Origin: a plasmid
Reading direction: 5' to 3' (one strand)
Length of the DNA stretch: 25,644 nt
Sequence record: NZ_CP033919.1
The notes under the pieces were generated by a model. That model made no database searches, was not told the DNA's origin, and worked only from the letters and a program-made list of their open reading frames with translations. Below are positions 13,479 through 15,736 of this stretch, piece after piece. The position numbers and the translations under genes are program-made. Every line of letters begins with the position of its first letter. Within the stretch, counting starts at the first letter, position 1.

Positions 13479-14603
13479 TTAAATAAGTAATAATTTATCC
13501 CAATCTCCTACGTTATCACCCAGATATTCTTTTACACTTAGGATAGCTCCTATTTTTCCGTTGATGTATGAATAATCAGCTTCTCCATTAGATGTATCCA
13601 GGAAATCGCTCGTCTTTACAATCCATTGCTCATAAGCATTAGAAGTAATTTCCGGCATAATATTTTGATCGTAGAGGACTTTGTAAAGTTGTGCAACCCC
13701 TGCACTTCCGAAGAAAAGTCTGTAATCCTCATTGTGTACAGTTTGCTTTAGCTCTGTACGCTTAACAGACTCTTCAATAATGATATTTGCATTTTCTATC
13801 ATATTCTCTGTTTTATAGATTTCCGGAAGAGAATATAATGTCGTAGAGAAGTTCAAATCACTATTTGACCATGTTAAAGCTGGTCGCCAGTTAAGAAAAA
13901 GTTCTTCTTCTTCTCTGTATACTGTTCTGGGTAATACATACCTTGTATTTTCTATCATCGTATTATTATTTCTAATAATATTTTCCTGATAGTTTAAAGA
14001 ATCATTAATAAGGGCATTCATTCTTTCATCATTAATTTCTGAAAATATTTTAACTAATGAAGGAAGTCCGTGTGCATATCCGAAATGAGTTCCCTGTAAT
14101 AATCCGGCATCATTAAAGAAAGGAGATCTTGTATTTTGGTTTTCTTTTTCTAAAATCTTATCAATAATTGCAGTTACATATTCTTTTTCACCACAAAGAT
14201 TCAGATAATATAAGATTCCAATTCCGCCATATAGATAGTCGAAATTATTGTTTTCTGTATATTGGATGGCATCTTCGAAAAATTTTTCGTTTAAGCCACT
14301 TAAGTCTATGTTATTGTTATCGGAAAGTACATTTAATTGATCCATTTCTCGAAGTAACCATCCTAATCCGGAAAGTCCTCCATAAATACTTTCTTTGAGA
14401 AGTAATGAAGAGTTGGCATCTAATACTTTACTGATTACTGATCCCAGGATTTCATTTGCTTTTTCAGCATATTTTCCTGTATTGTCTAAATGTATTAATG
14501 AATACGCGTAGCTTAACTTCCCTGTGAACAGTCCGTCACTTCCTGGCAGTTCTGTGTCCATGGAAAGTATTTTGTTTAGTTCTTTTTCAATTTTAGTTCT
14601 CAT
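13479..14603 (-). CDS. LanC-like alpha/alpha-toroid protein lacking zinc-ligand cysteines
   Basis: Repeated GxxG helical-repeat motifs (SIYGGLSGLGWLL, YLYGGIGILYYL, GYAHGLPS, FFGSAGVAQLY). The GxAHG motif is conserved, but the WCxG and CHG positions read TWSNS and FFGSAG. The protein has a single Cys, in LCGE. Confidence 0.6.
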   Translation of the reverse strand: MRTKIEKELNKILSMDTELPGSDGLFTGKLSYAYSLIHLDNTGKYAEKANEILGSVISKVLDANSSLLLKESIYGGLSGLGWLLREMDQLNVLSDNNNIDLSGLNEKFFEDAIQYTENNNFDYLYGGIGILYYLNLCGEKEYVTAIIDKILEKENQNTRSPFFNDAGLLQGTHFGYAHGLPSLVKIFSEINDERMNALINDSLNYQENIIRNNNTMIENTRYVLPRTVYREEEELFLNWRPALTWSNSDLNFSTTLYSLPEIYKTENMIENANIIIEESVKRTELKQTVHNEDYRLFFGSAGVAQLYKVLYDQNIMPEITSNAYEQWIVKTSDFLDTSNGEADYSYINGKIGAILSVKEYLGDNVGDWDKLLLI

Positions 14604-15736
14604 AGTTTATAGTTTAGGAAGTTTAAAAAGTCATAGTTTTTTATTTTTGCGGCAATCATGGCGATGCCTACTCCACTTACTCCGGATGAAAATGATAGAG
14701 AAGAAGACGGAATAAACCTATTGAGTTGTGGAGAAAAGTTATTTTTTTCTTCTTCTTGTAATAGCTCTAAAATTTCTTTTTTATCAACCTCTAAATCAAA
14801 ATCTTCTTCTGCTTCTATTAAACCTATTATTGAATAGATTCCGCTGGTTCCGAAGATTAGAGAGGCTTCATCTTTAGTTATTTTGCTAGTGTCTTTGAGA
14901 CATCTTTCTAATACTTTTTTTGCTTTTGCTTTCAGAGAATCGTTTTGTAAGACTTTCCCCGATTTGTATAATATGGTTGCGATACCTATATCTCCATATA
15001 CAAGATTACTCTTTATAGGATATTTAGTATCTTCTATTTGGGAGGGGAAGAAGTTATGATCCCCAGTTTTTTCAAGATAAATAATGCTCTTTAAGCCTCT
15101 ATCTATGATACTTTTTACATCAATTTTTGTAATAAATTTTTCATCTTTTAAACATTCAAGAAGAAAATTGATAATTCCTGCTGAACCATGAAAAATTCCT
15201 AATTCGTGAAGATATTTCCCGTCTCTTTCTACATCTGATTGCCAAACCAATCCATCTTCGTGGGCAATAGCTTTCTTCGTAATCTTTTCAATGATTTCAT
15301 TGACTTGGATATATTTTTTATTTTGCAAATAATATATCCCAAAACTTACAAGTCCTGATTGTGGACTCAAGGTTTCAGCTTCCAGAATTTTTGCATATTC
15401 ACTGTCAATGATCGGGTGAATAATATCTAAAAAGCTTTCTACACTTTCTATATCCAGAGCCTGCTCATCTACATAATAATGTATAAGGGTTGCAATCTCC
15501 AATAATTCTTTAGAAAAATTAGGAATAGGAGAATAATTCTTGGAAGAAATTAAATTCATTGCTTCATCAAGATAATTAATTGCATCCTGTAGATATCTTT
15601 CCTCCTGTGTCAATAGATATAGATAATATTTAAATAGGCTAACTCCACCTAATCCGTAAGAAACACTGCTAGAATATACTTCTACATCAGATGAATCAAT
15701 AAAATTGTTGATAAAATAAATTTGATTATTCTCCAT
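14600..15736 (-). CDS. LanC-like alpha/alpha-toroid protein, second paralog, lacking zinc-ligand cysteines
   Basis: Motifs SYGLGGVSLF, GIFHGSAGIINFL, VYGDIGIATILY, FGTSGIYSIIG and SSGVSGVGIAMI. The WCxG and CHG equivalents read LVYGD and IFGTSG. The only Cys are in LECLKD and ERCLKD. Confidence 0.6.
   Translation of the reverse strand: MENNQIYFINNFIDSSDVEVYSSSVSYGLGGVSLFKYYLYLLTQEERYLQDAINYLDEAMNLISSKNYSPIPNFSKELLEIATLIHYYVDEQALDIESVESFLDIIHPIIDSEYAKILEAETLSPQSGLVSFGIYYLQNKKYIQVNEIIEKITKKAIAHEDGLVWQSDVERDGKYLHELGIFHGSAGIINFLLECLKDEKFITKIDVKSIIDRGLKSIIYLEKTGDHNFFPSQIEDTKYPIKSNLVYGDIGIATILYKSGKVLQNDSLKAKAKKVLERCLKDTSKITKDEASLIFGTSGIYSIIGLIEAEEDFDLEVDKKEILELLQEEEKNNFSPQLNRFIPSSSLSFSSGVSGVGIAMIAAKIKNYDFLNFLNYKL

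What the first reader, a model, noticed from the sequence alone, without database searches (positions are those of the whole stretch)
13479..15736. Both LanC-like paralogs lack the canonical zinc ligands
Both proteins show the seven-fold GxxG alpha/alpha-toroid repeat signature of LanC and keep the GxxHGxxG block (GYAHGLPS, GIFHGSAG). At the positions of the NisC-type WCxG and CHG zinc-ligand motifs they carry TWSNS/FFGSAG and LVYGD/IFGTSG instead. The first protein has one Cys and the second has two, none in a motif context. Canonical LanC cyclases need a Cys-Cys-His zinc site to activate substrate thiols. These paralogs may therefore be non-catalytic scaffolds or chaperones for the LanB enzymes, or they may use a different cyclisation chemistry. 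Alternatively the products may keep dehydro residues or free Cys, or be cyclised in some other way. Either outcome departs from the class I paradigm.
Basis: partly seen in the sequence, partly recalled or inferred. Interest (0 to 1): 0.75.

Follow-up and report, generated by a model that had tools for sequence, protein, structure and literature searches.

The report
Paired zinc-ligand-less LanC cyclase homologues
A Chryseobacterium plasmid carries a lanthipeptide gene cluster whose two cyclase-like proteins both lack the zinc-binding residues the textbook enzyme needs; this is real and conserved by selection, but has published precedents, so it is an interesting variant rather than a new kind of system.

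Summary

They are not recent paralogues (14% identity). They belong to two LanC subfamilies that always occur as a pair in a Bacteroidota class I cassette: OMP, lanA array, LanC-A, LanC-B, luciferase-like oxidoreductase, LanB, C39-ABC exporter. The precursor cores share [ST]Cxxx[ST]C.

A-type partners lack ligands in every cassette examined. B-type proteins split into a zinc-ligand-retaining clade (WCNSD...CHG) and a monophyletic ligand-less clade (WSNSD...F[FY]G), which includes this one. That clade has coordinated substitutions (His173, Arg226, Arg240, Arg295 in place of Asn, Tyr/His, Asn/Thr, His/Tyr). dN/dS of 0.08-0.14 shows both genes are maintained.

The best reading is metal-independent cyclases, as in class III LanKC domains and the published zinc-ligand-less Pedobacter class I cyclase. 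No activity or metal content was tested. This is a new variant of a known kind, of moderate interest.

The parts
14600..15736 (-). LanC-A: a 378-aa LanC-fold protein of the 'A-type' subfamily. Val246, Ile294 and Phe295 sit at the NisC C284/C330/H331 positions. It keeps H183 (=H212), Y247 (=Y285) and D249, and carries the A-type residues E80 and E178.
13479..14603 (-). LanC-B: a 374-aa LanC-fold protein of the ligand-less 'WSNSD' clade. Ser246, Phe297 and Phe298 sit at the zinc-ligand positions. It keeps D122 (=D141), H178 (=H212) and W245 (=W283). Its clade-specific residues are H173, Y176, R226, R240 and R295.
15766..19007 (-). Array of 15 tandem lanA precursor genes (58-63 aa). Each has a Bacteroidota class I leader ending in GG. 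The cores share [ST]-x-S-C-x3-[ST]-C-N-x(1-2)-C, except the most upstream gene (18822-19007), whose core ends CNSLQC (three residues before the last Cys).
   Evidence: ORFs. NCBIfam NF038153 lant_leader_L1a, E 1e-10. TRF period 227 bp, 10.7 copies. Core comparison.
12531..13466 (-). Luciferase-like (LLM) flavin oxidoreductase. It follows LanC-B in almost every related cassette.
   Evidence: Pfam Bac_luciferase 60.3 bits. NCBIfam MsnO8-family 119.5 bits, below its cut-off. Synteny.
9520..12564 (-). LanB1: a full-length class I dehydratase with both glutamylation and elimination domains. This is the LanB of the conserved cassette.
   Evidence: Pfam Lant_dehydr_N 263 bits and Lant_dehydr_C 174 bits. 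Synteny.
7341..9608 (-). LanT: an ABC exporter with a C39 peptidase domain, which cleaves the GG leader. The true start is probably at 9542 (733 aa, as in orthologues).
   Evidence: Pfam Peptidase_C39, ABC_membrane and ABC_tran. Orthologue lengths.
4275..7259 (-). LanB2: a second full-length dehydratase. It is an add-on, present in the Chryseobacterium loci and L020 but absent from most cassettes.
   Evidence: Pfam.
19176..21545 (-). Outer-membrane beta-barrel protein resembling a TonB-dependent receptor. It sits directly upstream of the lanA array in many related loci.
   Evidence: Pfam OMP_b-brl_3 278.9 bits. Synteny.
2385..4270 (-). Two-component system: a histidine kinase (3104-4270) and a LytTR response regulator (2385-3104), at the 3' end of the cluster.
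   Evidence: Pfam His_kinase, Response_reg and LytTR.

Best explanation
The window is a plasmid-borne class I lanthipeptide cluster from Chryseobacterium. It belongs to a conserved Bacteroidota cassette: OMP, lanA array, LanC-A, LanC-B, LLM oxidoreductase, LanB, C39-ABC exporter.

Proposed pathway (all steps inferred):
1. LanB dehydrates the Ser/Thr residues of the [ST]Cxxx[ST]C cores.
2. The two LanC-fold proteins then guide addition of the Cys thiols to the dehydro residues without a Cys2His zinc site. This is metal-independent cyclisation of the kind shown for class III LanKC domains and reported for the Pedobacter class I cyclase.

LanC-B is the descendant of a zinc-dependent cyclase. Its sister clade still has WCNSD...CHG. 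It lost all three ligands once and remodelled the site, with His173, Arg226, Arg240 and Arg295 replacing Asn, Tyr/His, Asn/Thr and His/Tyr. LanC-A belongs to a subfamily that lacks ligands in every cassette examined but keeps the catalytic His and has conserved Glu80 and Glu178. It most likely closes a different ring from LanC-B, or prepares the substrate for it.

Shown here: the fold, the absence of ligands, retention of the His212 equivalent, the obligate pairing and synteny, a single origin for the ligand-less B clade, and purifying selection.

Inferred: catalysis without metal, the roles of the substituted residues, division of labour between A and B, and the ring pattern.
For: - Fold and family.
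- Ligand equivalences fixed against NisC and 67 canonical relatives.
- His212 equivalent is His in 35/40 ligand-less A-type (non-B) sequences and 17/17 B-type sequences. D141 equivalent is 17/17 in B.
- Pairing: all 13 genome loci with a WSNSD-type B carry an A-type gene (fragmentary in L007 and L011), and all but L013 an LLM. Loci with enough flank also carry LanB and a C39-ABC exporter. The same holds in metagenome loci.
- All 13 full-length A partners examined lack ligands.
- Sister cassettes in Aquimarina, Chryseobacterium lactis, Dokdonia and a Logan contig pair a ligand-less A with a ligand-retaining B-like protein (WCNSD/CHG). They have the same [ST]CxxxSC cores.
- In a neighbour-joining tree the 17 ligand-less B proteins are monophyletic and sister to 36 ligand-retaining proteins.
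- Twelve clade-defining substitutions include N207H and three substitutions to Arg. The A-type defining changes are G93E, N207E, W283L and H331Y.
- dN/dS is 0.08-0.14 for both LanC genes, the same range as LanB1.
- Precedents: ThurKC has S726/F770/D771 at the ligand positions and cyclises without metal (PMC10604976). The Pedobacter PedA15 cyclase lacks canonical zinc ligands (PMC10849128).
Against: - No biochemical data exist for either protein. Neither metal content nor cyclase activity was or could be tested here.
- The window's LanC-A is more degenerate than its family. It has Ser124 where most A-types have the Asp141 equivalent, and Phe295 where 37/40 have Tyr. This fits an auxiliary role.
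- Neither protein has an Asp at the His331 position, the residue shown to matter in ThurKC.
- Model coordinates could not be inspected, so placing H173, R226, R240, R295, E80 and E178 in the pocket rests on alignment to NisC motifs only.
- The host chromosome was not available, so a canonical LanC acting in trans cannot be excluded.
Confidence: 0.5

Rival explanations
1. One or both proteins are non-catalytic. They would act as scaffolds or peptide chaperones for the LanB/LanT machinery. Rings would form spontaneously or through a canonical LanC encoded on the chromosome.
For: The zinc triad is absent from both. The window's LanC-A also lacks the Asp141 equivalent and has Phe at the His331 position. 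The A-type is ligand-less even where a zinc-competent B partner is present, which fits A being an accessory subunit. Other Chryseobacterium genomes do encode zinc-competent B-like LanCs.
Against: The His212 equivalent is almost invariant in both families. The most conserved positions are those that align with the NisC catalytic and ligand motifs, not surface patches. The ligand-less B clade shows coordinated polar substitutions rather than drift. Selection is as strong as on LanB1. In the ligand-less clade no zinc-competent LanC is encoded in any of the 13 cassettes.
Confidence: 0.2
2. LanC-B rebuilt a different metal site from its newly acquired His173 together with His178 and conserved carboxylates (Asp249, Asp293, Glu359). 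It would then still be a metalloenzyme, but not a Cys2His zinc enzyme.
For: His173 is found only in the ligand-less clade (17/17, against Asn in 36/36 sister proteins). It lies five residues from the catalytic His. Several invariant Asp/Glu residues lie in the aligned active-site motifs.
Against: Three arginines replaced neutral residues in the same clade, which argues for a cationic, metal-free pocket rather than a metal site. No LanC-fold precedent for such a site was found in the papers searched.
Confidence: 0.1
3. The pair, together with the conserved LLM oxidoreductase, performs chemistry other than ordinary lanthionine formation on the repeated Ser/Thr-Cys dipeptides. Possibilities are a different cross-link, or stereochemical or redox tailoring.
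For: The adjacent [ST]-C units, repeated two to four times with fixed spacing in the multi-unit cores, are unusual. An LLM gene follows LanC-B in nearly all cassettes. LLMs are known lanthipeptide tailoring enzymes (LanJC reduces Dha to D-Ala; PMC7268733).
Against: Sister cassettes with the same cores use a B-like protein with an intact NisC-type zinc site. This points to ordinary thia-Michael cyclisation. One ligand-less cassette (L013) lacks the LLM. The labionin motif SxxSxxxC is absent. There is no LanD, and the last Cys is usually not C-terminal, so AviCys is unlikely.
Confidence: 0.15

Closest known systems
Pedobacter lusitanus NL19 PedA15 system (class I; Bothwell et al. 2021, ACS Chem Biol 16:1019, PMID 34085816; summarised in PMC10849128)
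   Same: [quoted passage not shown] The leader is of the GG type and was removed in that study with the C39 protease LahT150.
   Different: The primary paper could not be read. It is therefore not established whether PedC belongs to the A-type, the 'one-Cys' type or another subfamily. Nothing seen in secondary sources indicates a paired ligand-less LanC arrangement with an LLM, but this could not be checked. No Pedobacter sequence was identified among the homologues examined.
Class III LanKC cyclase domains (ThurKC, PDB 8SAM/8SAO; CurKC, PDB 8CAR)
   Different: Class III domains are fused to lyase and kinase domains and use phosphorylation. Here the proteins stand alone beside a tRNA-dependent LanB. 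The Asp at the His331 position that ThurKC needs is absent. The labionin motif is absent from the cores.
NisC and MadC, canonical zinc-dependent class I LanC (PDB 2G0D, 8BYK)
   Different: All three zinc ligands are replaced in both proteins. Arg280 is replaced by Lys (A) or Ala (B).
Zinc-ligand-retaining sister cassettes (Chryseobacterium lactis, Dokdonia, Aquimarina sp. RZ0, Flavobacterium columnare and others; uncharacterised)
   Same: The three cassettes read in full (C. lactis, Dokdonia, Aquimarina) have the same gene order, the same [ST]CxxxSC cores and the same ligand-less A-type partner. LLM, LanB and the C39-ABC exporter are also shared, although the Aquimarina LLM is only a 52-aa remnant. 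The other organisms named are protein hits only.
   Different: Their B-like protein keeps WCNSD...CHG. The window's B has WSNSD...FFG plus twelve clade-defining substitutions.
LanC-like proteins without the zinc motifs in Bacteroidales rSAM clusters (PMC10352776)
   Same: These are Bacteroidota LANC_like proteins that lack the C...CH triad.
   Different: Those occur without any LanB, often near CAZymes, and the authors judged them probably unrelated to lanthipeptides. Here LanB, leader-bearing Cys-rich precursors and an exporter are all present.

Membership tests
LanC-like superfamily (Pfam PF05147, alpha/alpha toroid) | Sequence match to the LANC_like profile above the gathering score | tested here: met
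   48.8 bits (B) and 75.7 bits (A) against a cut-off of 23.2.
LanC-like superfamily (Pfam PF05147, alpha/alpha toroid) | Double-layered alpha-toroid fold superimposable on NisC | tested here: met
Canonical zinc-dependent class I LanC cyclase (NisC type) | Cys-Cys-His zinc ligands (NisC C284, C330, H331) | tested here: not met
   A has V246/I294/F295 and B has S246/F297/F298, in three independent alignments.
Canonical zinc-dependent class I LanC cyclase (NisC type) | Active-site His (NisC H212) and Asp (D141) | tested here: inconclusive
   His is present in both (H183, H178). Asp is present in B (D122) but replaced by Ser124 in A.
Canonical zinc-dependent class I LanC cyclase (NisC type) | Stoichiometric zinc binding and zinc-dependent cyclisation | not testable with these tools
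   This needs ICP-MS and in vitro assays.
Class I lanthipeptide biosynthetic gene cluster | Full-length tRNA-dependent LanB dehydratase next to leader-bearing precursors containing Ser/Thr and Cys | tested here: met
   Two LanB proteins have both Pfam domains. There are 15 lanA genes; the two scanned both match NF038153, and all 15 share the leader motif. The cores carry three Cys and at least two conserved Ser/Thr.
Metal-independent LanC-fold cyclases (class III LanKC domain type) | Absence of the zinc triad in a LanC fold associated with thioether-forming precursors | tested here: met
Metal-independent LanC-fold cyclases (class III LanKC domain type) | Fusion to lyase and Ser/Thr-kinase domains | tested here: not met
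   Both are stand-alone proteins of 374-378 aa, and no kinase or lyase domain is present in the cluster. They are therefore not class III enzymes.
Metal-independent LanC-fold cyclases (class III LanKC domain type) | Aromatic residue plus Asp at the C330/H331 positions (ThurKC F770/D771) | tested here: not met
   B has Phe/Phe and A has Ile/Phe. Neither has an Asp at the H331 position.
Metal-independent LanC-fold cyclases (class III LanKC domain type) | Demonstrated cyclisation without metal | not testable with these tools
   This requires reconstitution.
Bacteroidota paired-LanC cassette (defined in this work) | Ligand-less A-type LanC, B-type LanC, LLM, LanB and C39-ABC exporter, with [ST]Cxxx[ST]C cores | tested here: met
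   The window shares this architecture with L001-L023.

The most novel reading that the evidence does not exclude
The WSNSD clade of LanC-B would be a class I cyclase lineage that switched once from a Cys2His zinc site to a metal-free, Arg/His-lined active site. It would work as an obligate pair with an older zinc-less LanC-A, each closing a different ring of the [ST]Cxxx[ST]C core. Together with its zinc-retaining sister cassettes, this would be a natural before-and-after pair for working out how a LanC fold catalyses thia-Michael addition without zinc.
Probability: 0.3. Interest if true: 0.7.

Novelty: new variant of a known kind. Interest (0 to 1): 0.55.

Why it matters
How LanC-fold cyclases form thioether rings without zinc is an acknowledged open question for class III enzymes (PMC10604976).

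This cassette provides stand-alone, small, ligand-less LanC proteins. Their closest relatives still carry the zinc site and serve the same kind of substrate. Only a dozen or so clade-defining residues differ between the two states.

That makes the question directly testable by residue swaps between natural homologues. It also flags a widespread, uncharacterised group of Bacteroidota lanthipeptides with repeated Ser/Thr-Cys units and an unexplained requirement for two LanC-like proteins plus a flavin oxidoreductase.

Tried and rejected
**Searches that led nowhere**
- Single-sequence searches of the PDB gave nothing usable. Family profiles were needed.
- The primary Pedobacter paper is not in the library. 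Several citing papers only list it as a reference. A review finally gave the statement about the cyclase.
- One literature search was wasted by setting min_terms to 1.
- The phrase search 'canonical zinc ligands' found only the class III paper.
- PLSDB holds no copy of this plasmid.
- Cluster-member look-ups gave no Pedobacter names, so a link to PedC could not be made.

**Ideas considered and rejected**
- Sequencing error or pseudogene. Rejected because orthologues keep the same residues and dN/dS is 0.08-0.14.
- Recent gene duplication. Rejected because identity is 14% and the two proteins belong to separate subfamilies.
- Labionin formation. The SxxSxxxC motif is absent.
- AviCys formation. 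There is no LanD, and the last Cys is usually not C-terminal.
- An alternative Cys-based site. No Cys is conserved in either family.
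Full report
**1. What is in the window**

The 25.6-kb window is a plasmid contig of Chryseobacterium sp. G0186. The LanC-A product is identical to the database protein EG347_22775, annotated as plasmid-borne. Almost all genes lie on the minus strand. In order of transcription they are:
- an outer-membrane beta-barrel protein resembling a TonB-dependent receptor (21545-19176)
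- fifteen tandem precursor genes (19007-15766)
- LanC-A (15736-14600)
- LanC-B (14603-13479)
- a luciferase-like oxidoreductase, LLM (13466-12531)
- LanB1 (12564-9520)
- a C39-peptidase ABC exporter (about 9542-7341)
- LanB2 (7259-4275)
- a histidine kinase and LytTR response regulator (4270-2385)

The precursors carry the Bacteroidota class I leader (NCBIfam NF038153, E 1e-10), which ends in Gly-Gly. Their cores share [ST]-x-S-C-x3-[ST]-C-N-x(1-2)-C, apart from the most upstream gene, whose core ends CNSLQC.

**2.

To fix equivalent positions I did not rely on motif spotting. An exhaustive HMMER search with LanC-A returned 952 representatives. Among the best 150, 67 carry the canonical GxAHG...WCYGD...CHG signature. 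They anchor a MAFFT alignment in which:
- LanC-A reads NL-V246-YGD and SL-I294-F295-G
- LanC-B reads TW-S246-NSD and RL-F297-F298-G

Family profiles aligned to the NisC sequence of PDB 2G02 give the same register. So does a joint alignment with NisC.

| NisC | LanC-A | LanC-B |
|---|---|---|
| D141 | S124 | D122 |
| H212 | H183 | H178 |
| R280 | K242 | A242 |
| W283 | L245 | W245 |
| C284 | V246 | S246 |
| Y285 | Y247 | N247 |
| C330 | I294 | F297 |
| H331 | F295 | F298 |

No Cys is conserved in either family.

**3. These are not decaying genes**

Orthologous clusters in Chryseobacterium sp. SIMBA_028 and C. oncorhynchi (L005, L006) keep the same ligand-position motifs in LanC-A. All 17 LanC-B-clade proteins lack the ligands. 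Pairwise dN/dS is 0.12-0.14 for LanC-A and 0.08-0.14 for LanC-B. That is indistinguishable from LanB1 (0.08-0.12).

**4. The two proteins are an obligate pair from different subfamilies**

They share 14% identity and are recognisable as homologues only by profile-profile comparison.

A scan of one genome per species (185,579 species) with LanC-B motifs found 13 loci. They come from Chryseobacterium, Flavobacterium, Tenacibaculum, Puia and Bacteroidota MAGs. Every one carries an A-type gene next to B or just after the exporter (a fragment in L007 and L011). All but L013 carry an LLM, and those with enough flank carry LanB and the C39-ABC exporter. Metagenome loci show the same arrangement.

All 13 full-length A-type partners examined lack the ligands. 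Their consensus is NLxYGD...DANLxYG. Precursor cores in all these loci contain at least one [ST]Cxxx[ST]C unit. Many have four [ST]C dipeptides with fixed x3/x2/x3 spacing.

**5. Ligand loss in LanC-B is derived and happened once**

Neighbours of A-type homologues in Aquimarina sp. RZ0 (L018) and a Logan contig (L020) turned out to be B-like proteins that keep WCNSDL...[IF]CHGSSGV. A search seeded with these found 45 relatives, all with Cys/Cys/His. They include proteins from C. lactis, F. columnare, Tenacibaculum, Dokdonia and Elizabethkingia.

The loci examined (C. lactis L022 and Dokdonia L023) have the same gene order, a ligand-less A partner and [ST]CxxxSC cores.

In a neighbour-joining tree rooted on NisC, the 17 ligand-less B proteins form one clade. 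It is sister to 36 ligand-retaining WCNSD proteins.

Twelve columns separate the two clades almost perfectly. The changes, written as sister-clade residue to LanC-B residue, are:
- N to H173 (NisC N207, five residues before the catalytic His)
- F/L to Y176
- I/S to Y222
- Y/H to R226
- H to N238
- N/T to R240
- C to S246
- S to N251
- Y/F to T254
- K to S258
- H/Y to R295
- G to N349

The C330 and H331 positions become F/N/Y and F/Y.

Three of these substitutions are to Arg and one is to His, alongside the loss of a Zn2+ site. This looks like a remodelled cationic pocket rather than drift. Whether these residues line the pocket rests on alignment only, because I had no access to the model coordinates.

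**6. The A-type**

Compared with canonical relatives, A-type proteins consistently differ at five positions:
- Glu at NisC G93 (E80)
- Glu at N207 (E178)
- Asn at A282
- Leu at W283
- Tyr at H331 (Phe in the window's protein)

They keep His212, Tyr285 and the following Gly-Asp. A third group keeps only the first Cys (34 of the 150 representatives). In one such locus it sits beside a canonical LanC, each followed by an LLM. Ligand-poor LanC-like proteins are therefore common in Bacteroidota class I clusters.

**7. Mechanism**

Shown:
- LanB enzymes with both domains
- Cys-rich precursors
- a GG-leader exporter
- two LanC-fold proteins, maintained by selection, with the acid/base His but no zinc triad

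Inferred:
- After LanB-mediated dehydration, the LanC-fold proteins bind the core and promote Cys addition without zinc.
- In LanC-B the new Arg/His residues would lower the thiol pKa or stabilise the enolate.
- In LanC-A the new Glu residues could act as a base, by analogy with Asp771 of ThurKC (PMC10604976).
- Two dissimilar cyclases for a core with two or more overlapping possible rings suggests ring-specific roles. I cannot assign the ring pattern.
- The LLM may reduce leftover Dha to D-Ala, as LanJC does (PMC7268733). It could also oxidise a thioether, as I recall for GarO (from memory, not checked here).

**8. Comparison with what is known**

Zinc-free LanC folds are established for class III. 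A class I cyclase lacking the canonical ligands has been reported from Pedobacter lusitanus. The bare fact is therefore not new, and the statement that all non-class-III cyclases keep the ligands is already outdated.

The papers I could search did not describe any of the following:
- the obligate A/B pairing
- the absence of ligands from every A-type partner examined
- the single-origin ligand-less B clade with its zinc-retaining sister in otherwise identical cassettes
- clusters like this one in which no encoded LanC has a zinc site

The library is incomplete, and the primary Pedobacter papers could not be read.

**9. Verdict**

The finding is a new variant of a known kind, with interest 0.55. 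The main uncertainty is functional: nothing here measures activity or metal content, and a chromosomal LanC acting in trans cannot be excluded.

Noticed in passing
window 15766-19007 (- strand): There are fifteen tandem lanA genes. TRF reports a 227-bp unit with 10.7 copies at 90% match over 15778-18184. Three genes encode identical peptides (17113, 17340, 17568) and two more are identical to each other (16213, 16433). The upstream five are progressively more divergent.
   Followed up: partly
window 19017-19154 (- strand): A 45-aa ORF has a leader-like N-terminus ending in GG (KYTGG) but no Cys in its tail. It matches no family. It may be a degenerate precursor or an unrelated small peptide.
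   Followed up: partly
window 19176-21545 (- strand); also L001, L008, L010, L015-L018, L021-L023: An outer-membrane barrel gene resembling a TonB-dependent receptor (OMP_b-brl_3) sits immediately upstream of the precursor array in most related cassettes across genera. This suggests a role in export across, or uptake through, the outer membrane. The function was not examined.
   Followed up: partly
window 12531-13466 (- strand): The luciferase-like oxidoreductase is divergent. Pfam matches only residues 21-111, and the NCBIfam MsnO8-family score of 119.5 is below its cut-off of 167. It is nevertheless syntenic with LanC-B in nearly all cassettes. In Aquimarina only a 52-aa remnant is left (L018:12534-12692).
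   Followed up: partly
window 7341-9608 (- strand): The mechanical ORF for the C39-ABC exporter starts at 9608 and overlaps LanB1 by 89 nt. Orthologues are 733 aa, which implies a start at 9542 and a 23-nt overlap.
   Followed up: partly
window 4275-7259 (- strand): A second full-length LanB is present here and in L005, L006 and L020, but not in most cassettes. It is more diverged between the window and the other two Chryseobacterium strains (84% identity, against 92% for LanB1 with L005). This may indicate exchange of this gene.
   Followed up: no
window 728-1385 (- strand) and 23315-24553 (- strand): Plasmid backbone genes: a HigB-family toxin (1068-1385) with a probable partner ORF (728-1084), and a protein containing a Toprim-like domain.
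   Followed up: partly
L021:10001-14336: A related metagenome cluster has the order LanC (first Cys only), LLM, canonical LanC, LLM. A radical SAM gene and a third LanC lie nearby. LanC-LLM therefore appears to be a repeated module.
   Followed up: no
window 16001-19000: AT skew is strongly negative (-0.30 to -0.39) across the precursor array, consistent with A-rich coding repeats on the minus strand.
   Followed up: no
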